The notes: a model not told the origin generated them from the letters alone. A stretch of 55,565 nt of DNA, filler included, from Porpidia crustulata (GCA_964255105.1; 3 parts of 3 records of this genome joined end to end with filler, not necessarily neighbours in it); one strand, 5' to 3'. Shown: positions 1 through 16,531, counted from the whole stretch's first letter. Numbers and translations: made by a program.

Positions 1-113
1 GATATCTTCCGAGGTACATTGTCTCCTTGACATTCTGCTCACAAATATCAAAGGCCAGAATAATAATAATACATCGAACCATTCATCAGATCAATCAGAT
101 CATACCATCATAC

Positions 114-1700
114 CTATCTCGCAGAACCATTCACGCTCGCCCCAGAACTCCCACCTTGCCAATCCGCAAAGTCCTTCTGAATCTTCGTTAATTCCTTTTT
201 CAAGTGCGAAAGCTGTTGGTGGTAATCTTCCAGAATCTGCGTTGGAGTCAGCTATCGGATCCCTCTGAACCCACCAAGAATATCATTTACGCACCTTGCT
301 CGCCCTCTGCAGAACCTCCTCGTCAATCTCCCTCGAGGCCCCTTCCGCCAGATTCTGCCCCGCCCTCTCGTACGCCCTCTGCAATTGCCTCCCTTGCTCT
401 CTCACACTCACCATCCTCGCCCAAATTTCTTCGCCTCGCCCGCTCAGCGCGGGATCAAAGACATTTCTCTCCAAATTGACGAGTTGCCTTCTTAGTTCTT
501 CTTCCGCGCTTTCCATGGCGTACCCCCGATTTTTGAGGACCTGCACCTTAGCCGCTAGCCCTAAACACTGGTGGCTAAGTTTGAGATGTTTCCGTCTACA
601 AGTAGCAGCTCGCGTCGAGATATCCACGTCATGCTTTCGAAGAAGCATCTCCAAGCCATCATTGATTTCATGCAATCGCCCTTGTAGTAGCATCAGATAT
701 CGATGCTGATCTCTCATTCGTAATCCTAATTGTTCAAAGCCTCTGACCATAACTGGGACGGCCCCGGGACTTGGTTTCTTGCGTAGCGCTTCCTCCCACT
801 GCGCTTCGTCGTCTTCGACGCTTGGACTGAAGAACGGGGCCTGTTCGGGAGGTACGGAATTATAGAGGTATGTCCGAAAAACGGTGTTAGCTGATTGAGG
901 GTTCCACTTAGAGAAGGCGACTTCGATTTGATCTGTTACAGTCCGAGGGCCTTGAAAGAACAATCAGCATACTATAAGAAGTGTGAGTCGGACTGAAACA
1001 TACGTGGCCATACGTCTGGATTTTGGAACATCCTCGATTGTAGCATCGAGCCTTGTTGCTGGCCTGGGGGCTGCTGTTGCACATTTCGGTTCGATGCTCC
1101 AAATATGCTGCCACCTTGCGGTTGTTGAGGCTGCTGCTGGTTCGTACTGCCTCCGAGGATATTACTGGTTCCCTGCGATGGCTGTTGAGGCTGCTGCTGG
1201 TTCGTGCTGCCTCCGAAGATGTTACTGGTTCCCTGCGATGGCTGTTGCTGACTTCCGCCGAATATACTACTTGATCCTCCAAAAGCGTTGCTTGCATTTG
1301 CTTGCGGCTGCTGAGTTGAGGTGCTACCCAGCAAAGTGGTTCCCCCAAATAAACTGCTATTACTCGTCGGCTGCTGCTGAGACCCACCACCACCACCAAA
1401 GATATTGCTCGTCCCCTGCTGCTGCTGTGGTTGGCTGATGCGATCGAACAAGTTACCCGAACTCTGCTGAGGTTGCTGCTGTACAGTGCTCCCAAACATA
1501 CCACTTGCGGCCGGTTGCGCTTGCACCGTAGCATTTTGCCCGAAGAGACTGCTACTTGCTTGCGGCTGCGAGCTCCCGGTGTTGGTGTTCAAGCTGAGGC
1601 CAAAGGGGCTCGGTTTGTTTTGGTTTGCGCTGGCTTGAAAAGGATTCGTATTCGAGAATGGGCTGGCGCCCGCGGCTTGCGGCTTGCTAAAGATTGACAT
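114..1700 (-). CDS. NUP57: FG-repeat nucleoporin Nup57/Nup54 family
   Basis: N-terminal Q/S/G-rich FG region (SLFG, NIFGG, SIFG) followed by the Nup54-type domain KWNPQSANTVFRTYLYN...WEEAL...GFEQL...EEIWARM. Spliced with introns 951-1003 (GTATGT..AAG) and 237-294 (GTGCGT..CAG); ATG at 1700, TAG at 114-116. Confidence 0.9.
1123..1247 (-). repeat. 60-bp tandem duplication within the FG region of Nup57 (QQPSQGTSNI[F/L]GGSTNQQQP)
   Basis: Sequence at 1141-1187 and 1201-1247 aligns with an exact 60-nt period and few substitutions. Confidence 0.85.
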
Positions 1701-2023
1701 ATTGAGGGAATTGCAAGTGGAGCGATGGGACTTGCTATCGGAAGGAGTAAGGATGAGCAGGGCACGAAGCACTTAAGAACTACTTTGTATTGAAGCTGCT
1801 GGAAATGACATCCTAAGCTGCACCTTTCCGACTTTCAAGGATAAGCAGACAATCAGCAGCAGCTTCTGGGATGATGTTGCGCGTAGAATCCAGTGAACAT
1901 CAAAATTCCCAAGCGCGTCCCAAGCTCCGCAACCAATCACAACCGCCCAAGCTCCCTCACTAGTGTCACTACCACCGAACCTCCACTCCCACTCAACCCC
2001 ACCACTCCATCACAACACCAACA

Positions 2024-2763
2024 ATGGCAGCCCGTCAACCAAGGTGACCCTCCCTCTCCTCTCTTAAGTACCATCCTAAATTCTCTGCTGACCTGTCCGC
2101 CAGATTCAACCAGAAAGTCCTCCTCGACACGACCCCCCTGCCAGACTCCGTTCCCAAAATCCCCGAAATCGGTACCAGTTCCGCGCCCCTGCTCAGTGCC
2201 TCCTTCTTCATCGGCGCGAGATGCAAGGCGTTCAACGACGATTACATGGTGTGCAAGACGGAGGCGAACGGGAGGGGGGAGGTGGAGTGCATGAGAGAGG
2301 GGAGGAAGGTTACGAGGTGTGCGGCTAGTGTGTGAGTACAGATTTCCCATTGGCGAATAGGTGGTATGATGTATGAGAGATTTACGGAATGATACCCGTG
2401 AGGTGCGAGGGGATGGGCCTTATGGTAGGAGGTCGGGAAGGGTGGCAAGTGGAGGGCGGAGCTGATGCGTAATGGATGAATAGGTTGGACGATATAAACA
2501 AGGAATGCCTAAAAGAATTCCGGAAGCATTGGGAGTGCCTGGAACAAAATAATCAACAACTATGGCACTGCAGGAGGCCTGAGATGAAGCTCAATGGATG
2601 TGTGTTTGACAAGCTGGTGAGTCCACACCTTCCGGATCCATGGCCGCAGGTTTCCAATTGAAGTCACTCGTCGCAGAAAATGGAGAAAACGATACCCGGG
2701 ACTCCGGAGAACGAGACCCCAGTTCACCTCCGAAAACGACAAATTTATTCTCAGAACTGGTAG
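2024..2763 (+). CDS. NDUFA8: NADH:ubiquinone oxidoreductase 20.8 kDa subunit (NDUFA8 family, twin CX9C)
   Basis: Spliced product MAARQPRFNQKVLLDTTPLPDSVPKIPEIGTSSAPLLSASFFIGARCKAFNDDYMVCK...CMREGRKVTRCAASVLDDINKECLKEFRKHWECLEQNNQQLWHCRRPEMKLNGCVFDKL...PVHLRKRQIYSQNW*; three introns; paired CX9C motifs. Confidence 0.92.
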
Positions 2764-3294
2764 AGGGTTGGCTGAAAAGTGGTGCGGGCGTTTTATAATG
2801 GTGTACATACAATTTCTTCAAAGCGACAGCATAGGAACTGAAAAGAAGGACATATTATTAGGCGAAGCAATCAAAGTACATTGCTGGCTACGGTTCACTT
2901 CTGCGGCCATATGAATGTTGGATCGCTGTCTAGATCCATAATGCTTTCACTTGCCCATCGCAGTAGGCCAAGATAGTAATGGCCCTAGTGACATTGTGTG
3001 GAACAAATTTAGACCCGTGTGCGTCAAATTTTACTTCTGTTTAAAAAGTAGTGAATCCAATTGCCATTTCCTAATGATCTCTGCGCTTCCGGTCAAACTT
3101 TGCTAGATCTATCAACGGCGCACTCCGAGAGGAGGGGTATCAAAACGTTCAGTGAAACCATCATCATCAGGTAGGAACGTAGCTAATACAATTGCGCCGA
3201 GACTAGAGATTGTGTTGGACAGATTGAGGATGACAAAGATATCGTGAGCAAGAGCAATTCCAAATCGATATGATCCATAAAGGAACTTAATTAG

Positions 3295-6200
3295 TTAAGC
3301 GATATAGGCTTTCAGCTCACGTGCCTGCCTTGCCAGGGGTGGTATCTTGCGGAGTACAGGATCTTGGGGATCCGCTTCGGCGATGAGCATATACTGGCTC
3401 TCCAATCGTTGACTTAGCACGTCCAGGATCCTGGGCGCAACATCTTGGATTTCGGGGTCCTAAGCAATGTTAGGAATTTGAAGGAACAATAGGAGAAGAG
3501 TAGCTAACCCTTGGATTCAATGTCATGAAAACATGCTCGAGCCAAGTCAAGCGCTCCGTCACATGATTCTCTAATGACGAGGTGACGGCAGCACCTACAG
3601 AGATGCCCACAAGGGGAGAGAGTTGCCGGACAAAGGATGGATCGCAATGGGCGAGATAGTCATCAAATATCTTGACTTGCCGTTCAGATTGGAGCCACTA
3701 CCTTGGCGTTAGTTGTCTTTTAGCCTTCGTCGCTGGTTTTTGCACTTACTTGAATGGTACAATCCTCGAATCCACCTTGATTCATCAAAGCACTCAGCCT
3801 CTCCACCTCTTCCTGCTCAGGGGATCTCTTGACTGCGTGAACCTTTGCCAAAGTATGTGAGGCGTCCTGATCTTCTCCTGAGCGACTACGGCTGGCGCTG
3901 ACTTGATGGTCTTGAGCTGCGTGTTGTAGCTTCAGGATCTCTTGCTGAAATTCAGACTGTGCAGCAGCCATTGTATGGACGGTTTCGGAGAGTCCACGGA
4001 CAAGATCCGTCAATTTGTCGATTTTGGCACTATCGTCGCGATGCTGCACCTCTGCTTTTTGCAACTGTTCACGAACCCGACGTTCTATGTCGCCACTAAC
4101 CTTTGCAGCTACGTCAACCGCAAGCGCCTTGAAGGCTGGTGAGATATGAGAGTGCAGCGTGGAAGAGAACTCCCTTTCCACATGGCCTGTAATCTTGCCA
4201 GTAATCTGGTCCGAAATGACGCGCAAGACTTCACGATTTTGAACACCACGGCCAATCGCTTCTGGTAAAGCAAGCTTCAAGAGCGGGGGAATCGCATGAT
4301 GGAGCTGCTGTGTTAGAACTTCTGTGATTCTCTTGTCGAGTGTGGATGCGGTAATTTGTGTAATGGACGGGAGAACAACCTGCTCAAGTTTGGCTTGGAT
4401 AATACGATCGAGGACTCTTTCCACATTATCTCCAAGAGTGCTTGAAACAAGGCGGAGGATCGCGTCTTGCTTTGCTGCGCCTGAAGCATCCTGTATCCTC
4501 TTGTCTTCGTCGATTCGGCGGTACAGAGCCTCGAGCTCTTTACCAAGGACTTTATTGAACTCGGCTGACACACCCTTCTCTATCTTTTTGAGCTCTTTGT
4601 CCAAGAAATCGCCGGAGACTCCAAGGTTGATTGAGTCTCCATTTGTAATTGAACGGGAAGAAGATGGTTTGCTCTCGCTTTTTACTTTTGGCTCATGGTG
4701 AGCCACCTCTGATGATGTGGTCGGAGCTCTCTGGGCTACGTTGGCATAGGTACCCGGGTTCGGGACTACTGGATGGACAGCCGCAGCGTCTGTCGGAGCG
4801 CGAAAAGGGGTATCTGCCACAGTTGTGCGTTTCTTCTTTTTCTTCTCAAATTTATCTGTGCTACTAGTGTCATTTGCAGTACGCTCTGGCCTTGTCAGCG
4901 CTACTTCCCCGGCTGGTAAGTTATGGGCTTTATCGGACGAGGCTGGAGCATTGCCAGTTGGCTCTTTAGGGAGGACAGTAGTAGCTGGTGCTGCAGATGT
5001 AGCGGTAGAAGATAGAATCTCCCCGTAAGCAGATGACGGCTCCCTTGAAGACGCGACGCGAGACTGAGGCAATTCTTTGACGGTGATGTAACCGTCTTTC
5101 TCGGAATCTATTGGGTGAAGGACCCTGCTGTCAGATGACCAGCCCAGATCTTCTTTTTTGATGCCCAAGCAGGTAACACCTTTAGAGTGCATGACATATA
5201 ATTCGAATTGATTGGGGTCCTCATCATCTTCCGTTGGCCTCGTCTGTTCGCCATTCGGGGGTACCAATTCGATGCTACGAAGCTCACCCTTATTCGTGAA
5301 CGAGTACTCTCTCATTCCAGACATAATCGCAGTGGCTTCTGGCTTTGGAAGAGTCGTATCGTTATTGCTCCGGCGTTGCACGAACTTAGCTTGCGACATA
5401 GGCGGCAGATTATACTTAGGCGCTGACAAGTGGACGAAGTAGATGGAGTTACGGGTTGGGTGACCGACAACGACAATGCCAGAGCTCGGATGATACGTAA
5501 TACTGCAGATAGCATCTGATTCCTTCTCATGTGGGAAATTGAGCTCTTGCACAGCCTTCCCTAAACAGAGATCCCACAACTGTAGCGTATGATTCTGCTT
5601 CATACCGACAACAACGTATCGCTGCGCGATGCCTCTTGTATAGGGCTTCACTTTATCCACGAAAAGGACCGAGGTAGGCCAAGCCTTTTCTGATGCAGAT
5701 ATCGTTACGTAGCTCATCAAAGGAGTCTTGATTTCGATAGGCGCGACCGTTGACGCCGAAGCGTTGGCTTCGTGAATCAACTCTCTGACGTCCCAGAACC
5801 GAAGTCGCCCAGCCTTATCCAAAGTCACAATGACGGTGTCGTCCTCGCTGAACGCAAAGTCTTTCCCAGCTTTTCCGGTAGTTATCTTCAGACTACGATC
5901 CTTGAAATAATTCTCGGTATCGATTATCGAGCCCATTTCCACAAACTTGGAAGCACGTGCTTGAGCTGGGAAGATGATCTGGACAGATTTGCCACGTCCG
6001 ATTGCAAAGAACTCGGGATGACGGCTGCTCCTTTTTGCACGAGTTTTTAATTGCCCGCCGGAAGTATTGTCCGACAGGGCTGGAGAAGGTGGGAAGATGA
6101 GGCTTTGACCCTCCATATCACCCTGAAATAAATCCTCTTCAGGTTTCGCGATAGTGACCCAGTATACGGTACCGCTAAGCCCGGTGGCTATAATGGATTG

Positions 6201-7970
6201 AGTACCACGTATTGGACTCGCTAGATGGGCTGTAGATATTGATACGTTGAAGATCCGATCCTTTGTGTCAGCAAATAGGTGTTTCGACAAGCCATCATCT
6301 TGCCGTATGACTCGAAGGCCTCCAACTTTTGGGGACCCGTAGACAATGAATTCGTTGGTGGCCGTCGCCAGGGTACGGTCCGTTTGATCAAACTCCTTCT
6401 TCAGGCGTGCTATGTTGATTACAGAGTCGTCCCGAACGGTTTGTTGAGAGAGCTCCTTCGATGATATCTCAATCGACACAAATGGTCGCATTGGAAATTG
6501 ATAGACGGGAATCACGCGACGGTGCTGATTTGCACGGGTGTCTTCGACTTCAGCACTCTCCCATCCATCAGCTTTGGACCCTTGCGCAGCATCATCAATG
6601 ATGTCTTTGACGGCCTCTGCCACAGGTACCGGGAAAGTTTCTTCCAGGAGCCCGTCATTTTCCTCTTTATCGAGTTCCTTCTTGACTTCCACGGCTGCAC
6701 AGTGGATCTTCTCCTCAATGACATCTAAGGTTTCTTCCTTTGCACGCTCCAACTCCTCCTTCTTAAGGTCCGCTTGCTTTTCCTTTTCTTCTGCTTTGGC
6801 AAGCGCATTCTCGACTTCACGGTCAACTTGATCCCCAACTTCACTCAACGCCTCAGCGACTGTACCAGCATTACGACTAGGGGCGCCAATACCCATCAAT
6901 GCTTCGATCTGACTCGGACCATTACCCTGGGCAGCTGGTCCAGAAGATTCGGTACTCTGGCGAATTTTACTGCCAGTCGGAGTGAGCTTTCTCCTGGTAC
7001 TATCCTGCAAAGGGCCTGGCGACGGCTCGTGCACCTTGCGTTTATGGCCCTCTCCATTGATTGATCTTGGCTGCGTGTTGCGAGGCGACGAAGCTGCGAG
7101 CTGCTCAAATGGATTGACGTATGTGAAGATCGAATCCTTCTTTGACTGGGGTTGTACCTCGGCTTTGGGCAGATCCTCCGGAGCGAACGGTGTTGGCTGT
7201 CCCTCGTCACTACTGCCAAATACCCGGATTGGCGAGTCTCCACGGATATCGCTTGGCACGATCGGAGAGCGTGTCCCCAGTGACGTCCCAGCAAGCTTCT
7301 GCGAGATCTGGTCAGCTGTTCGGTCATGTTGCCGAGATGGGGTCGGTGTCGATCCTGTAGCTCCTGCGTGAGTCTCCGGAGAAACTGCTGGCGGCGGATT
7401 CGATTGGTTGAGAAGGTTCAACAGAAAGTTCTGGTGGTTCGACGACGACGAGGGTGCTACGTTCTCGCGCGTTGGAGGTGAAGACATCTTGCCCATCGAA
7501 GACCCAACCAAGTCGGAAGCGGATATTCCACGCCCATGTACACTATGCGTGCTTGAACTGCCATAGCCAGAACGCAGCATGCTTGGAGACTGGTGCTGAG
7601 TGGCGGCTGGCGGAGATGAAACTGGTTGACTGAATTTCAGCAGATTGAGAAGACTAGCAGTTCGGTCGTTGTTGTTGTCGCCAGCTGGTACTGGCGTACC
7701 AGTTTTGCTCCTTGCCATGCTACCGGGCAGGTCTCTTGGCTGGGAAGCATTCATAGGTGAGAAACTTGATGATATTGTAGCTGAAGCTTTTCGCTCAAGA
7801 TGACTTACTTGAGGTGATTCAACACCGCGATTGAAATCGAAAGATTGACGGTTTGCGGCCGGAGCTGGGCTCTGGTCTCCAGTATGGCTGTAGCTCTGCG
7901 TGCTCGAGGATCGTAAACTGGCAAAGAGACCCTGCAGGTTGGATGAGGGGTCTCCTGCCGGGGTAGACAT
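3295..7970 (-). CDS. EDC4/Ge-1/Pdc1-like mRNA decapping scaffold (disordered N-terminus, WD40-like propeller, C-terminal helical region)
   Basis: Long first exon with LLNLLKF short motifs, a beta-propeller-like region (IARLKKEFDQ.DR, TLDKAGRLRFWDV, HTLQLWDL, GHPTRNSIYFVHL) and a coiled-coil/helical C-terminus. Two short terminal exons (WLQSERQ..., DPEIQDVAPRIL...) end at TAA 3295-3297. Confidence 0.75.
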
Positions 7971-9748
7971 TGCCTAAAGCACTGTTTGGGCCAAGTGAAG
8001 GTGAGGATGAAGGAAAGCAATAGGATGAAATAGAAGGATGTGAATGATGAAGGTTAAGTAAATGTCAGTCAACAGATGAAGTTCGAGTGATTACTTTATG
8101 GAGGACTGTATAAATGCTTTTCGCGGTGGTTGGACGGATCGGTGTATTGGTGACGCTAGCAAGCAGCTCCAAAAGTGAATCTACAAGGATCTTCATGCGC
8201 CGCCGCCAAAGCAGGCTTACGAGCACCTCAATCATACCTAACCACCTACCTACCTTGTTTCGATTTACTTAATCATAATAATAGGAAGGCTGGAGGGTAC
8301 CTCGAAAGGGGTTGGGGGAAACATGAAATAAATGACGGAGTTACTTTCTCTATGGAGGATGGAGGGTTACAGGGCCTCTCATCTCAATTTTAGGGGCCAC
8401 CATATGTTCAATTCGTCATTTAGCTAGTTCATTACACCCACCAGTGCTGCAGAACCTCAGTTGACTAATCGACGAATTGCCCAATTGAACAAGTGGATAA
8501 TTATCCAGACGACTAAGTACACGAGTACTTGAACAGGCAGGTGTCACGGTGGATGACTGAAAAGTGTGTTTGTTGGGTGCTCGTCAAGGGAATTTCAGGG
8601 GTGTTTTTAGATGAGTGAAGTAGGTGAGGCTTGGAGAGGCGGACCTGACGGATATTTGAACAATGGGTACGTGCGTCGCTGAAGGTGAACTCGAAACATG
8701 TCGCAAAGGTACGCTGCTAGCTGTTTGAGAAGTAAGTCTGACGGATATCATCGAAGTACCTCCAATGCGTGTTAGTTGGTTGACTACGAAGCGAATTCGC
8801 TGAATGACGATGCATAAATCAGGTAGGGTAGCGAGTAGGGTATTGAGTAGGCAGAGTGTTGAGCGGGCAGGATGCAAGGCAGGTAGGGTGCTTGAGAGAG
8901 CAAGGAGAGCGTCGTGCGCAATTGGTCGACAAACAGAAATGAACAATGAACTAGAATGGGACTGCATCTGCTTTTTCGACGCTCTCGACTTAAGAGCATG
9001 CATTTTAATTCTTGAGGCTCTTCGGGCCGCTTCAGGGTTAAAGTAGCCCGGAGCCCTAGGAGCAGCATTTTTAGACTGGCCAAGGAGCCTGCCGGGCTGA
9101 TCTTCCGTTTACTCGCCGTGCTGGATCGCGATTAAATGCGCGCACTAGCATTGCCAAGAAAGCGGATCAGGTGGCCTGTGATAGTTTGCAGTATCCTTCA
9201 TTGACGGTGCCATCTTCATCATCACCTTCATCATCACCGCCGCACATGCCTTCCTCGGAGCATCGTGAAAAGTAGGTAAGGCACCCTAATTGGTCTTGTT
9301 TTTAAACGAGATTCAATAAGGAAAGACACCAAGGTAAGCCGTCGATTCTCGATACCTCGCGCTTCGCTGACCCTGAAGATATGCAAGAGCAGCGTCATAG
9401 ATGGAAATCACCATCTCTGAGTAATGCCCGGCGCAAAGCAGGAACTGGTGATGAGTTGGTGTGAAGCGAGCTGTGGATTGATCACTAGGCTGCGATGGAT
9501 TGAGTGTGGGGTTGCACCGGTGTCATGTTGTCACAGTCGTCCAGAGCTGGCTGCGAGGTCCTTTCTGAACTGGTCGAACGCAAAGATATTTGACTTCACT
9601 GTTTGTGCTCGCAAAAGACACCGCTGGGTTATCGTAGATGGGAGATCTCGCAACACTCTTGCTGTCTATCGTATTGCCTGCCTCCTGGTATGCCAGTATG
9701 TGTACATGGCGCACAATCTCCTGTCCTAGCTCGACTGGCCTAAGGCCT

Positions 9749-12700
9749 TCATACTAACCATATATTGAATTGCTTCGCGCTCGACGGGTCGATAGACGGG
9801 TATCTGACCTTCAGCGTTTCGAGATCGTTCCAACGCTCTTGTTTCATGTATATGAGCGAGAGCTGTTCCACGATCGCCAACGTTCGTGGACTATCCGCCG
9901 ATAGAATCTTCTCCTTCGCAATGACGTCCAGAACTTTCAAGCATTCCTTTTCTGCCTCCTCCATGCGTCCCATTGCCGTCCGCACGTATATGTACCCTAA
10001 CATAGCAACGGTTGAGTCTGGATGGTCTTTCGGGACAACTTTGAGCAAATCATCAAGTAGGATCTCTGCTTCAACTAATCGCCCAGCACGCACATATGCC
10101 TGCGTTAAGTTTGCTTGATTCATCATGATACCGGGATGCGCCTCACCCAGCGTGCGGCGAAGAATTGGCGCAGCTTTATTGAGGATCTCGATGGCCTCTT
10201 CGGGGCGCTGACGTACAGTGAGCACTTTAGCCAAGTCGTTCATTGACCAGAGGGTGTATGCGTGCTCCTCTCCCAGAATCCTTTTTCTGGCCGTCAGTAC
10301 GTTTGACACGAGCCGCTCGGCAGCGGGAAGGTGATCTTTAGAGACGCAGAAGCTCATACCGAGCTCATTACGCGTCATGAGAGTATCTTGATGGTTGGGG
10401 CCGAAGAGCCGCTTCCGTTTCTGGAGGACTTCTACTAGTAGGGTGCGGCTGGCGCGCTGGTCGCGGAGGTGGTGATATGTGCGGGCCAGGTTGAACATGG
10501 CGGTCAAAGTCAAAGGGTCGTCGGGGCCCAGACGCTTCAGCAGGCCCTTGACGGCACGTTCGCCGACTCGCTTGGACAAGTCAAGTTTCCCAGCAAACCA
10601 GAGGGAATTTGTCAGTTCTGAAAGAGTAACGCAATACGGAACATGTTCTGGTTCCCATGGCGGCCAGATCATCCAGTCAGTTAGTGAGGGGCGCGCATAC
10701 CAGTGGGTCTCGAGAATATTGCGTTGAGCTGAAATACATGGTAGGAGATCGAAGAGATGGAAATTAGACTGCGCAAGACTGTGCTGTGCTTGAATTGTGA
10801 GTGTGTGAAATCTGCCAAGTGCCTTGGTCCTGAATTGGATGACCGCAAGCTGATATGTGCGTGCCTGCTCCCAAAGTCCATTTTCTGCAAACACCCAGGC
10901 AAAACGCTCGATCTCTACGGCCCTTTCAGCAGCATTCGGATCGATCCCGCCGTAAAATTCTTTTAGCTCTCGCAGGCAAGCCACGATGTGAGGTAGCAAT
11001 GATCTCCGAAATCTCCGGCCCGATGCTTCCATAAGTGGAGATATGCAACGTGTAAGTACAGCAATGGCAGCATTGAGCCAGCGTTTCTGGTCTGAGTCAG
11101 AGAGTCTGTCCTTCGCCCATCGCTGAACTACCGGATGTAGCGACACAACGCCCTTCTTTGGGTCGTGGTCAATGATAGAGTAGTTATAGAGGATACTGAG
11201 TGATGTTCGCAGCCGAAATTGCGAGCCTTCATTCCACTCTGGTGGGGATTCGTGGGATCGTATCCGAGTTTCATCGCTGTCCCAAGGTCTTTTGAAGACA
11301 GCCTCTGGTATAGAGTCGAAGTGCATGAACGCGGATATATGGATCAAGTCCACAGCGTCTCTATACTCCAAAGATTTGCGACTTGCAATTCTTCGGAACG
11401 GGATCTCCCATGTTGTAATTATGTTAGCTTTATAAGCGGAGTTAATGCTTCTTGATGTGATCATTTCTTTCCTGTGCCCTGTGTAGTACCTTAAGTACAT
11501 TTCCAACGTATATATCTTCCGACGAATGCTTATGCCGGCATTGGCTAGTGCAAGTGCTAAGTAGCCAAGTTCAGACGCAATTTTTTGTGCAATCTGTCGA
11601 CTGTCTGACTTTGGAGAAGGCGATTCATCCTGGGAAAATGCGGTTTTAAGCAGGAGAGTGACGGCATCCTCCGGCTCCATACCGCCAAAGCGGAGACGGC
11701 CAGCCGTGGCATGAATGTTAACATCTGGATTGCGAGTCGTGATCAGGATGTGGCCGCTGTTTCCAACAGGAAAGTATTTCGAGACATCCATTTCAGGATC
11801 GTCAGCATTATCGATTATGAGCAACCATGGCTTCGTACATTGGGAGAGCCAATGCATACCACCTATGAAGGTTGCTCCTTTCCCCATTTGCTGGCCGAGT
11901 GAGGCAAAGTTGGTTTCTGCGTTCTCTTCGCTACTTCCATCAATCCAAAACACACCCCAGTACCTTGCTTTGTTGTCTTCTGCATATCTTAAACAGAACT
12001 GGGTCTTACCGGAGCCGCCGAGTCCATATATAACACAAACTTTGTGTCGATTAGCTTCGTCTAGGTGGCTAACTTGACCTAGCTTCTCCCGCACGACCTC
12101 CGCATGAACCCGCCTACCAGTAAAGTAGGTACTGGAGCAACGTGGGACAATGAACCATTCGTTACAATTGGATCTGTTTCCATCGTCGGACATGAGATAT
12201 CGAAGTGGTGGCTTCAACAAATCTTCTGCCTCGACTTGTCGCTCGTGTTGAAGCGCTTCCATATCATTATCCCATCTACACTGTATTAAACCAGGCGCAG
12301 CGGCGATGTATCGTGTCAATGCCTCAAGAATGACTCGATAACCGGGATCGTGAACCCCCGAGAATTTAGTCATCTCGCCATGAGTTGCAAACATACCACA
12401 TCTTTCAGCATCGTCCCATATAGGCGCTGCAGAGTCCCCATCCACAATGTGCGTGCACAAGTCACCCAACTTTGTCTTCCTTTGCTCCCATAGGTTATAA
12501 ATAGCAAAGCGTTTCATTAGCGGTGCAAATTGATCGGTGATCTCTTGCAGCATCTCTGAGCCTTTGAGAAGATTCAACTCGAACTGGCTTGGGCCTAGCC
12601 TGTTAGTGAGCGGACTTTGATGCCGTAAGAGCAAGCTCTCCTTCCGTACGCCATTGTGCGGAGTTCCTAGAAACACGATTCCATGCGTGGAGATGAACAC

Positions 12701-13192
12701 TGAGCGGAGGTGCACTACGGCCTGCGCCCGTCGGGTGGAGGAGAATGCGAGTGCTCGCTTTACAAGCAATCCTCCGAAACCATGGCACACAAAAATGATC
12801 GGCCGATTAAATGCCTCTGCAAGCTGGCGATCTGCGCATAGCTCAGCCACGAGACTATTTGCAAATGGCAATATTCGATCAGCTGAGCCGTCGCCAGGTG
12901 ACGAGAAGGCGTCGCCATTGTAGTGGTAGACGAGCACTCGGACATTGTATTGCTGATGTGGGAACAAGTCCCGGAGCCAAAGGATGCCTGACTTAGTGTC
13001 GGTCCATGCCTCAAGTCCGTTCTCGAAGATACCATGTACAGCAACAATGCTGCGAGTGGGAATAAGTTGTAGCGCCGGGAATGGGACAATATTGGTAAAT
13101 ACTCACTCAACAACAGGGGCGTTTCTGGCGGCATGCGATGAAGAATCATAAGTAGCTGTAGTGGTTGGGGCCGTTAGTTCTAAGATGCCCAT
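9749..13192 (-). CDS. Fungal NLR: SesB/PGAP1-like alpha/beta-hydrolase-fold N-terminus + NB-ARC + TPR repeats
   Basis: Exon 1 MGILELTAP...PVVD, a phase-2 intron, then IVAVHG...WLRDL, FLGTPH. Walker A GLGGSGKT, Walker B WLLIIDNAD, ILITTR, YLALAL, LHPVVQ. Kinesin-light-chain-type TPR repeats (GPDDPLTL..MFNLA, GPNHQDTL..RNELG, GEEHAYTL..MNDLA). Start codon inferred; a further upstream exon cannot be excluded. Confidence 0.9.
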
Positions 13193-13639
13193 TCTCTATC
13201 TATTGCCGCGACCCCGCGCGGGCGGCAGCGCGTGCGATGGGTGGCAGGACAGACATACTATTGCTGAAGTATGGACTCGAGGAAAAGATAAAGTATGATA
13301 AAGCAAATATGGGGATGATGCCAGCTATGCCAGCCTACTGCCTCCCTCATCCAGACCCATTCGTAAGGCAAAGCAACGTTCTGAGACGAGGCTTTCAGGT
13401 TACATGGGACGGCGCATTGCATAAGTACGCGTAGCAAATCAAGCTTCGATCCAGCCCACCACATTTAGGTTTTTGGGACAGAGGAATACATATAATCCTT
13501 ATGCCGCCTGTCTTCCAGTATTTTGTTCCGCTGGTATGAGTGGCATTTTGAGAGCAAGCCGGCTGTCTCGCGTCTGTTCCATGTGATTTTGGATAGCGCG
13601 CTCGGTTTGCAATTGGCTTTCTCTTCCTTTAGCATTAGC

Positions 13640-15342
13640 ATGGCTCAGGGGTATTATCTCCTCGCCTACTTTATACTCATCGCACTTTATTGTCGGCGAC
13701 TTTTCCGCAACTATCAAACTCGCCAGGTAAGTCTTGGCATGCTCTCTCAGACGAGATGCATGCTAACATGAGAAGCAGGCCGACAAACTGTTTGCGGAGC
13801 AGCATGGATGTCTACCTGCGCCTCGAATTGAGAACCAGAGACCCTGGGGAGTAGATCGACTCGAGCAGATCTTCCGAGGCGATAGAGAATGTCGCTTGAT
13901 GGAACTCTTTCTGTTCCATTTTAGGCAAACTGGAAACACTGTCGAACAAGTTTTTATTGGCTCGACTGCCTTCGACACGATTGAACCTGCCAATCTCGAG
14001 GCCATACTTTCAACCAAATTTCAAGGTATCTATCTGACAGATACCCAACTCCACCATTACATCTGGAAATATCTAAAATCCAGCAGATTTTGATATGGGC
14101 CCGCGTCGAGACATAACACTTCCCATGTTCGGTGACGGCATCTTCACTCAAGAAGGTCCAGCATGGAAGCATTCTCGAGACTTACTACGAACTCCACTCC
14201 AGCATAAACAATACGAGAATTTAGACGTTTTCAGGCAAAGTGTAGAGGACTTGACCGACATCCTACGCAGTCAACCTGGTGTTGTTGATCTGCAGCCCCT
14301 CTTCTTCCGTCTTACCCTCGATATTACAACGGAATTTCTTTTTGGCGAGTCAGTAAATAGTCTTAAAGCACCCAAGTCCGTCGGCGAGCAAAGCTTTGGC
14401 GAAGCATTCAATACAGCCCAGGAGTTCGTAGCGACCCGCTTTCGGCTCCCTGATTTTTACTGGGCAATAGGAGGGGCTAAGTTCAAGAAGGCTTGCAACA
14501 ATGTGCACTACTTTGCGGATCAGATCATTGATCGCAATCTGTCGCGCAGCTCTGCAAAAAATCGCGTCTTTCTGGATGTTGTGGCTGAGAGCACAGCGGA
14601 TCGCGATGCTTTAAGAGGCCAAATTATCAACCTTCTCGCAGCAGGTCGAGATAGCACAGCTTGCTTGCTCACATGGACTTTCTTCCTGCTCGTTCGTCAT
14701 CCGAAGGCCCTGGAGAAGCTGCAAGAGGAAATCAATCGTAATTGCCTCGAATTAGCGAGTTTTATGCGGACAGACCTTCGAAAAATGGGCTACCTTCAAA
14801 AAGTCCTCAAAGAGACTTTACGACTGTACCCATCTGTCCCTGTAAACACCCGTACTCCAAACAAGGCTACTGTACTTCCAACTGGCGGAGGCCCAGATCG
14901 GACTGCTCCAGTGTTCATTCCGAAGGGCTCGACCGTAGCTTACTCCGTATACGCCATGCATAGACGGGTGGACCTATACGGCATGGACGCTGAGCTTTTC
15001 CGTCCAGAGAGATGGGACGAAGACATGCCGATGCACCTTAGCAAGACCAACGAAGCGTGGGGATACCTTCCTTTCAACGGAGGCCCCAGGACGTGCCTCG
15101 GAAGTAAGTCTCATTTCAACCCAGAGCATCGTGGCAAATGTACTGACTGAAGTCTTTGTTTAGTGGATTTTGCGCTTACCGAAGCCGCCTATACAGTGGT
15201 CTGCCTCCTTCGGCAATTTCCTTCAATACGATTACCAGCGGGCCAAAAGGTCGAGCTTACTGGCGTAGAGAAGCAGACCGTGACTCTCGTAATTCAATCA
15301 ACAGAAGGTTGTATGGTTGACACTACTTCTAGAGAAGAGTAG
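13640..15342 (+). CDS. Cytochrome P450, CYP52 clan (alkane/fatty-acid hydroxylase-like)
   Basis: N-terminal TM anchor, GDGIFTQEG..WKHSR, I-helix AAGRDST, ETLRLYP, PERW, heme motif FNGGPRTCLG; three introns; last exon MDFALTEA...* ends TAG at 15340-15342. Confidence 0.92.
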
Positions 15343-15396
15343 GAGAACAGTACAGCATTAATTGATTTGGAGTAGATTTCAACAAATGCCAAAGAA

Positions 15397-16531
15397 CTAT
15401 CGCAGCAGCTCATCTGCTTCCTGAGAGCGTTTCGAGTCTAGCATCTCAATAGCATACTTCCAACGTCGCGAGATGACCTCAGGAGCTTCCTTTGAGTACC
15501 GGATCAAAGCGGCCACAACGATTCTATATCCAGGAGAGGTGTTACTCTCGAACTTACACATGTTCACATGGTCATAGGGAAGACCGGCTCGTTCCGTATT
15601 ATCTAATATTGGTGCTGCGGAAGACTCTTCGACGACCTGCCAGGCATCAGCAGTGAAGATCTCCTTCCAGAAAGGCAGATTTACATACGAAGTCCTGGGT
15701 AATTCCCATATTCATCTTTTCCTGCTCCCAGAAGAAGAAAATATGAAATTTCTTCATGAGCGGTACAAACATGTCGGTGATATTCTGCAGCACCTCTGAG
15801 CCTTCTTGTAGGGCATCAAGAAGCTGGCCTTCGGTGTCTACGACCTTGGAGGGTGCCAAGGCTCCGATCATGCGACGAGTGGTTGAGGCGAGCTTGACTT
15901 TGTTGCTACCGTCATGAGGCGTTCCCAAGAACAAAATCCCAAATGTCGAGACGTAGATCGAATGCACGTGCTGAACATACTTGCTGGTCCTGCTTGCAGA
16001 GTACGCCAGTGCCTGTAAATAATCAAACTTTGACTCCCTTCTGCTTCTGAGAGACCTCATGCATCTTACCCGTTTCACGATAATGCCACCAAGTGAGTGG
16101 CAAATAAAGATGATCGGCCGTTGCGTCGCGTCTTCCAGCTATTCTCTCGGTCTTAATAGCCAGAGTGGTCACCATGCGGTCCAACAGGCTTACCTCGCGG
16201 TCTGCCACCAGTTCGGCGACCAACGTTTGCGCATGTTGCAGAATACGATCTGACGAGGTCTTACCCAACACTGACATTACCATCGCGTTGTAACCATAAG
16301 TCAGAACGCGAGAATTCTTCAGATGCGAGGGCAGGAGGCCGGGATCCTTGAGCCACATCTTATCTGATCCTCTCGATGTCCATGTCGTGAACGGATCGCC
16401 ATTGAGCCCATGTACGGCAACGACGCTGTGCGCATTAGTAGGCTATCGTAAACTCGCGAATGAATCTTCACATGCTCCACAATCGGATCGCTACCTCTAT
16501 ACAATTCGGTCAGGCCGGTATTTGGCGTCAT
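15397..16531 (-). CDS. Stand-alone SesB/PGAP1-like alpha/beta hydrolase, paralogous to the NLR N-terminal domain
   Basis: Five exons: MTPNTGLTELYRGSDPIVD-VVAVHGLNG..MWLKD..RVLTYGYNA..LVAELVADRE..RPIIFICHSLGGIIVKRAL..FLGTPH..FFFWEQ..VVEESSAAP..DHVNMCKF..RW..EADELLR*. Nucleophile-elbow Ser codon at 16094-16096. First intron is GC-AG (16426-16475). Confidence 0.88.

What the first reader, a model, noticed from the sequence alone, without database searches (positions are those of the whole stretch)
9749..16531. Candidate three-gene immune/lipid-signalling module: pseudo-hydrolase NLR + CYP52-clan P450 + active paralogous hydrolase
Seen in the sequence: the NLR (hydrolase-NB-ARC-TPR) and the P450 are head-to-head, with about 450 nt between start codons. 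The P450 and the stand-alone hydrolase are tail-to-tail, with only 54 nt between stop codons. The stand-alone protein aligns with the NLR N-terminus along its whole length (IVAVHG/VVAVHG, LVAELCADR/LVAELVADR, RPIIFVCH/RPIIFICH, FLGTPH, LKGSEMLQEITDQFAPLMKRF/QEGSEVLQNITDMFVPLMKKF, WEQ, SAAP, GYRVI/GYRIV, terminal W..E.L...R..EA..LL helix). Established knowledge: SesB-like hydrolases are common N-terminal effector domains of fungal NLRs, and adjacent NLR/effector gene pairs are usually coupled by amyloid motifs (HET-s/NWD2, sigma, PP). No amyloid-type motif is evident here. Inference: ligand-activated NLR oligomers recruit the free hydrolase through homotypic hydrolase-fold contacts, with the dead domain acting as an adaptor. 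The released fatty acid or lipid would then be oxidised by the co-regulated P450 into a signal or toxin, or the P450 product would be the NLR ligand. I do not know of this architecture being characterised, but I cannot search the literature.
Basis: partly seen in the sequence, partly recalled or inferred. Interest (0 to 1): 0.85.

Follow-up and report, generated by a model that had tools for sequence, protein, structure and literature searches.

The report
Conserved fungal NLR–P450–hydrolase gene trio
An immune-receptor-like fungal gene whose lipase-like head has lost its catalytic serine sits beside an intact sister lipase and a fatty-acid-type P450, and the same trio is kept together in five classes of ascomycete fungi, which points to an undescribed lipid-linked sensing module.

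Summary
A 1128-aa hydrolase/NB-ARC/TPR NLR has CHGFGG in place of the nucleophile elbow. It lies head-to-head with a 509-aa P450, 447 nt between the ATGs. The P450 is tail-to-tail with a free hydrolase (CHSLGG), 54 nt between the stops. The free hydrolase is 45% identical to the NLR N-domain over 288 aa.

The new result is conservation. Of 45 distinct metagenome loci that carry the free hydrolase, 23 hold all three genes; among loci with at least 5 kb on both sides, 17 of 21 do. NLR and P450 are divergent in 22 of 23 trios, while the flanking genes differ. Adjacent locus tags or shared contigs show the same linkage in named genomes of five Pezizomycotina classes.

Every linked NLR domain lacks Ser (30 Gly, 1 Glu). 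Every free copy keeps Ser, apart from two near-identical duplicate loci that were not rechecked. The two groups are sister clades. All parts are under purifying selection, dN/dS 0.07-0.18.

So the module is real and ancient, and the free hydrolase is not a recent partial duplicate. The proposed mechanism remains untested. Six literature searches found no description of the trio.

The parts
9749..13192 (-). NLR gene (1128 aa): exon 1 at 13192-13107, intron at 13106-13050, exon 2 at 13049-9749 including the stop
   Evidence: Reading of the sequence and splice sites. Pfam finds NB-ARC and TPR. Full-length orthologues are 44-82% identical.
12212..13048 (-). N-terminal lipase-like alpha/beta-hydrolase domain of the NLR (residues 30-308). 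It lacks the nucleophile Ser and ends in a long helix of about 45 residues.
   Evidence: 45% identical to the free hydrolase. AF2 model pLDDT 87, pTM 0.88. Best solved matches are the phospholipase PlaB (Z 20.2, rmsd 2.8 A over 223 residues) and bacterial lipases. dN/dS is 0.09-0.12.
12779..12787 (-). Codons Cys-His-Gly of the elbow CHGFGG. The Gly codon (12781-12779) stands where the free paralogue has the nucleophile Ser.
   Evidence: Sequence. This alignment column is Gly in 19 of 20 linked NLR domains and Glu in 1.
11444..12070 (-). NB-ARC NTPase domain (P-loop GLGGSGKT)
   Evidence: Pfam PF00931, 33.8 bits, residues 327-535 of the exon-2 translation. P-loop seen in the translation.
9851..10534 (-). 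TPR repeat region
   Evidence: Pfam TPR_12, TPR_10 and MalT-like TPR, residues about 839-1066. No tandem DNA repeats. dN/dS is 0.14-0.18.
13193..13639 (.). 447-nt region between the divergent start codons of the NLR and the P450; presumed shared promoter
   Evidence: Coordinates. NLR and P450 are divergent in 22 of 23 distinct trio loci. No enriched k-mer was found.
13640..15342 (+). Cytochrome P450 gene (509 aa): exons 13640-13726, 13779-14025, 14087-15103, 15164-15342. It has an N-terminal membrane anchor; the heme Cys codon is at 15094-15096.
   Evidence: Pfam p450 scores 179.6 bits. Orthologues are 64-90% identical over exon 3, and many are named 'alkane hydroxylase'.
15343..15396 (.). 54-nt gap between the convergent stop codons of the P450 and the free hydrolase. 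The 3' UTRs must overlap or abut.
   Evidence: Coordinates.
15397..16531 (-). Free DUF676/SERAC1-like serine hydrolase (306 aa with the GC-AG intron model): exons 16531-16476, 16425-16194, 16138-16070, 16012-15689, 15636-15397. The nucleophile Ser codon is at 16096-16094.
   Evidence: Orthologues of about 306 aa are 70-89% identical over exon 4. dN/dS is 0.07-0.13.

Best explanation
The three genes are a selectively maintained unit. It arose once, early in Pezizomycotina, when a DUF676/SERAC1-like lipase gene was duplicated and one copy was fused to an NB-ARC/TPR switch and lost its nucleophile.

Most likely working (inferred, not shown):
1. The TPR/NB-ARC part senses a conserved cue and oligomerises.
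2. The clustered serine-less lipase-like heads do no chemistry. They act as a docking or activating platform for the intact sister hydrolase, a pseudoenzyme/enzyme pair.
3. The hydrolase removes an acyl chain from a membrane or storage lipid.
4. The ER-anchored, fatty-acid-type P450, co-expressed from the shared divergent promoter, hydroxylates the released chain. The product is either a signal or a change to the membrane.

The cue is probably common or endogenous rather than a polymorphic non-self marker.
For: SHOWN
- Linkage. Of 45 distinct free-hydrolase loci, 23 carry all three genes, 7 more carry the P450 and 1 carries the NLR. Most of the 14 'hydrolase only' loci are contigs with under 1 kb of room. 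Read from the table, 17 of 21 groups with at least 5 kb on both sides have the trio, and 20 of 21 have the P450.
- Order. The gene order varies among 23 trios: 7 like the window, 12 NLR< P450> HYD>, 3 HYD> <NLR P450>, and 1 tandem. The genes stay adjacent throughout, and NLR and P450 are divergent in 22 of 23.
- Flanks. The window's flanking genes have no hit in any of the 79 loci. Only 5 of 253 pairs of trio loci share any flank ORF.
- Named genomes with adjacent locus tags: Fonsecaea pedrosoi Z517_03764/03765, Xylographa soralifera MMC17_007179/007180, Lecanora helva ACLMJK_009252/009253. Tags two apart for NLR and hydrolase occur in Icmadophila, Squamulea, Bathelium, Ikaeria and Flavoplaca.
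- All three proteins lie on contigs of equal length in Clohesyomyces, Lojkania and Westerdykella. Five classes were checked.
- Nucleophile. The linked NLR domain has Gly in 30 of 31 loci and Glu in 1. The free copy has Ser in 25 of 31 directly and in 4 more after a recheck; 2 near-identical duplicates were not rechecked.
- His, the FWE glutamate and the HG of the oxyanion region stay invariant in the dead domain.
- Trees. The non-Ser NLR domains form one clade (SH-aLRT 99), sister to the free hydrolases (89; joint 92), with Ser-type NLR domains outside. The subclades run in parallel.
- Intron 1 is at the same position in both genes.
- dN/dS is 0.07-0.18 for every part.
- The dead domain still folds as a lipase or phospholipase.

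INFERRED: docking of the free enzyme on the dead domain, the lipid substrate, and the order hydrolase then P450.
Against: - No direct evidence of interaction, co-expression or chemistry.
- The trio is not obligatory. L014 and L044 have the hydrolase and P450 with 10 kb on each side and no NB-ARC/TPR gene, so the enzyme pair can stand alone.
- The loci were found by hydrolase motifs, so how often the NLR or the P450 occurs without the hydrolase is unknown.
- Several of the 23 groups are close relatives, for example L057, L058 and L059, or L026 and L028.
- dS is near saturation (0.5-1.5), so the dN/dS values are rough.
- No shared promoter motif was found.
- Co-divergence of neighbouring genes is expected from common descent and does not by itself show interaction.
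Confidence: 0.45

Rival explanations
1. The information flows the other way. The hydrolase and the P450 make or destroy a lipid-derived small molecule. The serine-less pocket of the NLR head is the receptor for it, as in alpha/beta-hydrolase-fold hormone receptors (GID1, D14/KAI2; recalled). The NLR is then a sensor of the pathway's product or substrate.
For: The pocket residues other than the nucleophile stay invariant in the dead domain: His223, W187-E188, H5-G6 and C88-H89. It is under selection as strong as the NB-ARC (dN/dS 0.09-0.12). The Gly at the elbow is itself conserved, which would keep a pocket that binds but cannot cleave. The enzyme pair also exists without the NLR (L014, L044), as expected if the NLR is an added sensor.
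Against: In known NLRs the repeat domain senses and the N-terminal domain executes. The conserved TPR half would then have no assigned role. The cap region between strands 6 and 7 is variable in length and poorly modelled in the NLR domains, which is odd for a specific ligand pocket.
Confidence: 0.25
2. There is co-regulation only. The hydrolase and P450 are a small metabolic pair for hydrophobic esters, fatty acids or alkanes. The NLR is kept next to them by a shared bidirectional promoter or by chance retention, with no functional link to the enzymes.
For: Hydrolase-P450 pairs occur without the NLR (L014, L044) and in a merged Talaromyces atroroseus model (P0087). P450 orthologues are named alkane hydroxylases.
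Against: The NLR head is the closest paralogue of the neighbouring hydrolase, and the two have co-diverged since one duplication. Linkage survives at least three kinds of rearrangement while the flanks turn over. The NLR is constrained along its whole length.
Confidence: 0.12
3. Guard or integrated decoy. The free hydrolase is a target of inhibitors or effectors from competing organisms. The serine-less copy on the NLR mimics it and triggers the receptor when it is bound.
For: A dead copy of a host protein fused to an NLR and encoded next to the real one resembles plant integrated-decoy NLRs (recalled). DUF676 hydrolases recur in conflict systems: the atlas clusters include NACHT_sigma-bearing fungal proteins and bacterial 'ABC-three component system' proteins (a lead only). 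Three NLR orthologue models carry a C-terminal HET domain.
Against: Loss of Ser would abolish capture of covalent lipase inhibitors. There is no sign of diversifying selection or presence/absence variation. The conserved P450 has no role in this model.
Confidence: 0.1
4. The free hydrolase is a recent partial duplicate of the NLR's 5' end, drifting without constraint.
For: None beyond the adjacency and the co-linear alignment.
Against: Orthologues of about 306 aa are 70-89% identical over exon 4 across classes. dN/dS is 0.07-0.13. It has three introns that the NLR lacks. The free clade is as deep as the NLR clade.
Confidence: 0.01

Closest known systems
Fungal sesB-like/NB-ARC/TPR NLRs (Dyrka et al. 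2014, PMC4986451, passages read; e.g. Podospora Pa_2_10340)
   Same: The same three-part architecture. The N-domain is homologous to sesB-like/DUF676/SERAC1 lipases.
   Different: Here the lipase head has no nucleophile Ser. The gene has one-to-one-looking orthologues across five classes. The TPRs are not repeat arrays. The gene is tied to two enzyme genes. The Ser-type NLR domains form the outgroup in the trees.
Adjacent NLR/effector gene pairs coupled by amyloid motifs (HET-S/NWD2; sesA/sesB/het-eN; Daskalov 2012 PMC3321046 and PMC4344463, seen as search listings only)
   Same: An NLR and a free protein homologous to an NLR effector domain are encoded side by side.
   Different: No short prion-type motif was found. 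The NLR carries the whole domain and the free protein ends in a helix. The coupling, if any, must be by another route. A P450 is part of the unit.
EDS1/PAD4/SAG101 lipase-like proteins of plant NLR signalling (recalled; only reviews seen in the listing)
   Same: Lipase-fold proteins whose catalysis is dispensable pair with each other through the lipase-like domains and act with NLRs and small molecules. This is the nearest working analogy for a dead/active lipase-fold pair.
   Different: No EP domain, no detectable sequence relation, and here the dead domain is fused to the NLR itself. This is an analogy only.
Legionella pneumophila phospholipase PlaB (PDB 6zth/6zti)
   Same: The best solved structural match to the NLR head: Z 20.2, rmsd 2.8 A over 223 residues. 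It is a phospholipase with the same compact lipase core.
   Different: 12% identity. PlaB is an active bacterial enzyme with a different C-terminal domain. A shared fold shows no function.
Cyanobacterial SesB-like/NB-ARC/TPR gene with conserved stop-codon readthrough (earlier scan note e1-3079508, unchecked)
   Same: It would also yield a free hydrolase together with a hydrolase-NLR fusion.
   Different: One gene and recoding rather than two paralogous genes. Its hydrolase was not reported as dead. No P450.

Membership tests
Fungal NLR (STAND), sesB-like/NB-ARC/TPR class | Central NB-ARC NTPase domain with a P-loop | tested here: met
   PF00931 at 33.8 bits against a cut-off of 23.5. GLGGSGKT seen in the translation.
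Fungal NLR (STAND), sesB-like/NB-ARC/TPR class | C-terminal TPR repeats | tested here: met
   TPR_12 at 117 bits and TPR_10 at 95 bits.
Fungal NLR (STAND), sesB-like/NB-ARC/TPR class | N-terminal sesB-like alpha/beta-hydrolase (lipase) domain | tested here: met
   5129 relatives at E<=0.001, many of them at the N-terminus of NLR-length proteins. Lipase fold. Pfam Abhydrolase_6 reaches only 22.4 bits, below its cut-off of 26.3.
Fungal NLR (STAND), sesB-like/NB-ARC/TPR class | Catalytic Ser in the lipase elbow (the domain is predicted to be an active lipase or esterase) | tested here: not met
   CHGFGG in the window. Gly or Glu in all 31 linked NLR domains. Among 65 stored proteins of at least 700 aa, the elbow reads Ser in 36, Gly in 22, Glu/Asp/Arg in 1 each, and is not recognised in 4.
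Amyloid-coupled NLR/effector gene pairs | A short prion-forming motif at the NLR N-terminus matched by one at the C-terminus of the neighbouring effector | tested here: not met
   No prion-motif family among the Pfam hits of the NLR, and none in the three hydrolase exons scanned at E<=0.01. The NLR N-terminus is a full domain. Dedicated amyloid-motif profiles from the literature were not available here.
DUF676/SERAC1-like serine hydrolases (the free protein) | Alpha/beta-hydrolase with an x-H-S-x-G nucleophile elbow and a conserved His | tested here: met
   CHSLGG and the conserved His in the window. C109, H110, S111, G113, G114 and H250 are invariant in 12 orthologues.
DUF676/SERAC1-like serine hydrolases (the free protein) | Match to Pfam PF05057 | tested here: inconclusive
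   The three window exons scanned one by one gave no hit. Many full-length orthologues carry a precomputed PF05057 hit. The nearest atlas clusters are DUF676.
DUF676/SERAC1-like serine hydrolases (the free protein) | Esterase or lipase activity | not testable with these tools
   Needs an enzyme assay.
CYP52 family of P450s (alkane/fatty-acid omega-hydroxylases) | P450 fold with the heme-thiolate motif FxxGxRxCxG | tested here: met
   PF00067 at 179.6 bits. FNGGPRTCLG in the spliced protein.
CYP52 family of P450s (alkane/fatty-acid omega-hydroxylases) | At least 40% identity to a named CYP52 member (P450 nomenclature rule, recalled) | not tested
   No named CYP52 reference sequence was at hand. 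The only support is source names, 'cytochrome P450 alkane hydroxylase', and the nearest solved P450s, CYP97, CYP4B1 and CYP102.
EDS1/PAD4/SAG101 family | Lipase-like domain followed by an EP domain | tested here: not met
   No such family among the Pfam hits of the NLR. The free hydrolase ends after one helix. Considered as a working analogy only.
Plant-type integrated-decoy NLR pairs | A sensor NLR with an integrated domain, paired head-to-head with a helper NLR | tested here: not met
   The head-to-head partner is a P450, in the window and in 22 of 23 trio loci.

The most novel reading that the evidence does not exclude
Pezizomycotina carry an ancient, vertically kept NLR pathway that signals through lipids. 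An NLR with a pseudo-lipase head pairs with its own active sister lipase, in the way the EDS1 family pairs through lipase-like domains. Together with a dedicated P450 it makes a hydroxylated lipid messenger, or remodels membranes, in response to a conserved danger or developmental cue. This would be the first fungal NLR with a defined enzymatic output arm, and the first pseudoenzyme/enzyme pair in NLR signalling outside plants.
Probability: 0.2. Interest if true: 0.9.

Novelty: new variant of a known kind. Interest (0 to 1): 0.72.

Why it matters
Fungal NLRs are numerous, but almost none has a known ligand or output, and most are too variable to compare between species. This one is the opposite. 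It has a single-copy-looking orthologue in five classes of ascomycetes, including lichen fungi, plant pathogens and black yeasts. It is always tied to the same two enzymes, and a catalytic residue was removed once and never restored.

That gives a tractable entry point of three small genes, with predictable biochemistry and many culturable hosts, into how a fungal NLR is wired to an effector arm. It also gives a natural case of a pseudoenzyme and its active paralogue kept as neighbours. And it shows that a sizeable share of 'sesB-like lipase' NLR heads cannot be lipases: 22 of the 61 recognisable elbows in NLR-length proteins sampled here read Gly. That changes how this annotation class should be read.

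Tried and rejected
- Complex prediction of the window's NLR N-domain (A2) with the closest full-length free hydrolase (A1, P0002, 87% identical to the window's over exon 4). Score 0.00, verdict 'no answer', and the alignments were not used. This says nothing either way.
- RNA evidence. No RNA holder is listed; the one run found is not on record as RNA and may be the source sample.
- Structure of the free hydrolase from the 12-row alignment. The model was poor (pLDDT 62.6), so it was not used for a fold search.
- Promoter motif. No 6-8-mer in the 20 NLR-P450 intergenic regions exceeded shuffles. The fatty-acid regulator site CCTCGG (recalled) occurs 13 times in about 20 kb, near chance.
- Tandem repeats in the NLR: none.
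- Shared synteny beyond the trio: none for the window's flanks.
- Names and accessions of cluster members: the database was switched off. The window's own genome is not held.
- Earlier scan notes on this genome or sequence: none.
- Literature. Searches found no description of an NLR-P450-hydrolase cluster or of a serine-less sesB-like NLR clade. 'P450' and 'catalytic' do not occur in PMC9815663 or PMC12258605. 'Active site' does not occur in PMC4986451, and its three hits for 'serine' concern proteases. Supplements were not read, and subscription journals are not covered.
- The merged models P0087 (P450 plus hydrolase) and P0048 (hydrolase plus NLR head) were considered as natural fusions. This was rejected as likely annotation run-through: the junction residues look out of frame. 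They are used only as evidence of adjacency.

Full report
WHAT IS THERE

The window is fungal DNA with short introns. The closest named relatives of its proteins are lichen-forming Lecanoromycetes: Xylographa, Icmadophila, Letharia and Lecanora. I rebuilt the three genes from the sequence.

- The NLR runs on the minus strand from 13192 to 9749 with one 57-nt intron and encodes 1128 aa. Pfam finds NB-ARC (33.8 bits, cut-off 23.5) and strong TPR matches. The N-terminal 300 residues reach only a sub-threshold Abhydrolase_6 score.
- The P450 runs on the plus strand from 13640 to 15342 in four exons and encodes 509 aa. It has a hydrophobic N-terminal anchor and the heme motif FNGGPRTCLG.
- The free hydrolase runs on the minus strand from 16531 to 15397 in five exons.

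The free protein aligns with NLR residues 30-308 at 45% identity (E 6e-78). The alignment stops where the NB-ARC part begins. The elbow reads CHSLGG in the free protein and CHGFGG in the NLR.

One correction to the hydrolase model. Orthologues begin M..GLxELYRGxDPxVD-IVAVHG. The window encodes this if exon 1 ends at 16476 and the intron has a GC donor. The same GC donor stands in the four nearest relatives (L005, L006, L031, L034), while more distant ones (L003, L012, L019, L049) have GT at the same place. That gives 306 aa, the orthologue length. It also puts intron 1 at the same codon and phase as intron 1 of the NLR.

THE FREE HYDROLASE IS OLD AND CONSTRAINED

Exon 4 alone (108 aa) finds proteins of about 306 aa that are 70-89% identical. 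They come from Lecanoromycetes and Dothideomycetes, with further relatives at 49-65% in Leotiomycetes, Sordariomycetes and Eurotiomycetes. Sources name them DUF676 proteins, 'Protein SERAC1' or, oddly, 'ribonuclease-like protein p/mrp subunit'. Against three relatives, dN/dS is 0.07-0.13. The 'recent partial duplicate' reading is excluded.

THE TRIO IS CONSERVED

A scan of metagenome contigs with an alignment of 12 free hydrolases returned 79 loci. I searched them with the window's three proteins.

- 59 loci belong to the free-hydrolase clade. At 98% nucleotide identity or more they collapse to 45 groups.
- Of the 45 groups, 23 have all three genes, 7 have hydrolase plus P450, 1 has hydrolase plus NLR, and 14 have the hydrolase alone.
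- Most of the 14 are contigs with under 1 kb of room.
- Read from the table, 17 of the 21 groups with at least 5 kb on both sides have the trio, and 20 of 21 have the P450.

The order is not fixed. Seven groups match the window (HYD> <P450 NLR>). Twelve have NLR< P450> HYD>. Three have HYD> <NLR P450>. One (L020) has NLR and P450 in tandem. NLR and P450 are therefore divergent neighbours in 22 of 23 groups, and the hydrolase stays adjacent through inversions.

The surroundings are not conserved. The window's neighbours are Nup54, an EDC4-like protein, a WLM protease, PanE and a UBX protein. None of them has a hit in any locus. Only 5 of the 253 pairs among 23 trio loci share any flank ORF, and all 5 are near relatives.

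Named genomes agree.
- Adjacent locus tags for NLR and P450: Fonsecaea pedrosoi and Xylographa soralifera.
- Adjacent locus tags for P450 and hydrolase: Lecanora helva.
- Tags two apart for NLR and hydrolase: Icmadophila, Squamulea, Bathelium, Ikaeria and Flavoplaca.
- All three proteins on contigs of the same length: Clohesyomyces, Lojkania and Westerdykella.
- NLR plus hydrolase, or NLR plus P450, sharing contigs of only 24-58 kb: Lophiostoma, Melanomma, Hypoxylon argillaceum and Ustulina.

NLR orthologues cover 99-100% of the query at 44-57% identity in Dothideomycetes, Eurotiomycetes, Leotiomycetes and Sordariomycetes (classes checked).

THE DEAD/ACTIVE PAIRING IS CONSERVED AND AROSE ONCE

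In all 31 loci where a hydrolase domain is followed by NB-ARC/TPR, the nucleophile position is Gly (30) or Glu (1, L020).

The free copy reads Ser directly in 25 of these loci. In 6 the tblastn alignment ran through an intron next to the 23-codon exon. Four of the six were rechecked by motif search (L003, L007, L009, L056) and have CHSLGG. L004 and L008, near-identical to L003 and L007, were not rechecked.

All 22 named NLR orthologues that I inspected have Gly or Glu at this position. In an alignment of 20 linked NLR heads, the His (H223), the FWE glutamate, the HG after strand 3 and the Cys-His before the elbow are invariant. The Ser was lost, but the rest of the site was kept.

Two trees agree: FastTree on 144 rows and IQ-TREE (LG+C20) on 61 rows. 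The non-Ser NLR heads are one clade (SH-aLRT 99). The free hydrolases are one clade (89). The two together (92) exclude the Ser-type NLR heads. The subclades of the two sisters run in parallel, for example window+L005, L019+L020, L026+L027+L032+L045+L039+L056+L030, and L012+L016+L057/59. That is what one ancient duplication followed by co-inheritance predicts.

The dead head is not decaying. Its dN/dS is 0.09-0.12, the same as the NB-ARC (0.08-0.10) and the P450 (0.12-0.13). The TPR half is a little looser (0.14-0.18). dS is near saturation, so these values are rough.

The AF2 model of the window's head is confident (pLDDT 87, pTM 0.88). Its best solved neighbours are the Legionella phospholipase PlaB (Z 20.2, rmsd 2.8 A over 223 residues) and bacterial lipases.

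HOW IT MOST LIKELY WORKS

What is shown: a three-gene unit maintained by selection, a pseudoenzyme/enzyme paralogue pair, a membrane-anchored P450 of the fatty-acid/alkane type by name, and an intact NB-ARC switch.

What I infer: the NLR is the switch and the two enzymes are its output arm. On oligomerisation the serine-less heads would form a platform that docks or activates the free sister hydrolase. Its acyl product would then be hydroxylated by the P450 (confidence 0.45).

The main rival reverses the flow. The dead pocket would be the receptor for a product of the enzyme pair (0.25).

Less likely are co-regulation without interaction (0.12) and a guard or decoy arrangement (0.10).

Whether the module is 'immune' is open. 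The architecture, the DUF676 family's recurrence in conflict systems (a lead only) and three orthologue models with a C-terminal HET domain point towards immunity. One-to-one orthology, purifying selection and the lack of repeat arrays point to a conserved cue rather than polymorphic non-self recognition as described by Dyrka et al. 2014 (PMC4986451, passages read).

The trio is not obligatory. L014 and L044 have the enzyme pair with 10 kb on each side and no NB-ARC/TPR gene. L014 has a Ser-type DUF676-NACHT-ankyrin NLR nearby instead.

LIMITS

- The loci were found through hydrolase motifs, so NLRs or P450s without a hydrolase neighbour could not appear.
- Several trio groups are close relatives.
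- Genes in the loci were located by tblastn, not by full gene models.
- No expression data exist here.
- The complex prediction gave no answer.
- The CYP family was not assigned.

COMPARISON WITH WHAT IS KNOWN, AND NOVELTY

The sesB-like/NB-ARC/TPR architecture is common, and sesB-like heads are read as lipases (PMC4986451; PMC9815663; PMC12258605; passages read). Adjacent NLR/effector pairs are known, but they are coupled by amyloid motifs, which are absent here.

Six searches found no paper that describes a serine-less sesB-like clade, a conserved NLR-P450-hydrolase cluster, or any of six orthologue locus tags. Supplements and subscription journals were not covered.

An earlier scan note (e1-3079508, unchecked) reports a cyanobacterial gene of the same architecture. 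There, stop-codon readthrough would give a free hydrolase as well as a fused one. That is a parallel worth testing, not evidence.

I class the finding as a new variant of a known kind, and score its interest at 0.72.

Noticed in passing
window 16426-16475 (minus strand); L005, L006, L031, L034: Intron 1 of the free hydrolase appears to be a GC-AG intron (donor GCAYGT). It is conserved in the window and its four nearest relatives. More distant relatives (L003, L012, L019, L049) have GT at the same position.
   Followed up: partly
L014:16153-20113 (+): In this close relative (hydrolase 77%, P450 74-79% identical), no NB-ARC/TPR gene lies next to the P450. About 3.7 kb away sits a different NLR: a Ser-type DUF676 head, then NACHT, then ankyrin repeats. 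A further DUF676 copy lies at 5920-6528.
   Followed up: partly
P0453 (Verruconis gallopava), P0469 (Tothia fuscella), P0447 (JGI record): Three gene models of NLR orthologues run on for about 550-600 aa past the TPRs into a HET domain (residues about 1190-1376). This is either a true fusion or a HET gene conserved just downstream.
   Followed up: partly
P0048 (Alectoria sarmentosa, 514 aa): A merged model of the hydrolase followed by the NLR head. Both are degenerate, with the elbow region and many conserved motifs disrupted. This is either pseudogenisation of the module in that lichen fungus or a poor assembly.
   Followed up: no
P0087 (Talaromyces atroroseus, 785 aa): A P450 and a hydrolase merged into one model. 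The junction looks out of frame, so it is probably annotation run-through. It does show the pair adjacent and on one strand in a Eurotiales genome.
   Followed up: partly
L023, L024, L025: Hydrolase genes at least 98% identical have different neighbours on three contigs. Two have the TPR half only of an NLR on the opposite strand, and one has a P450. This points to rearrangement, segmental duplication or strain variation.
   Followed up: no
trees: Both sister clades split into two deep subclades, and named Dothideomycetes appear in both (Rhizodiscina against Trematosphaeria and Alternaria). Loci of the second subclade are much more distant from the window in all three genes (NB-TPR 29-33%, P450 37-48%). 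The whole trio may have been duplicated early.
   Followed up: no
window 1-9000 and 17000-55565: The trio sits among housekeeping genes: Nup54 and an FG-nucleoporin, an EDC4-like protein, a WLM protease, PanE, a UBX protein, CENP-T, CMS1 and a WD40 protein. It is not in a secondary-metabolite cluster or a repeat-rich region. GC is even at 0.41-0.52.
   Followed up: partly
names of P0028, P0032, P0038 and others: Many Dothideomycete orthologues of the free hydrolase are named 'ribonuclease-like protein p/mrp subunit'. That does not fit a DUF676 alpha/beta-hydrolase and looks like a propagated misannotation.
   Followed up: no
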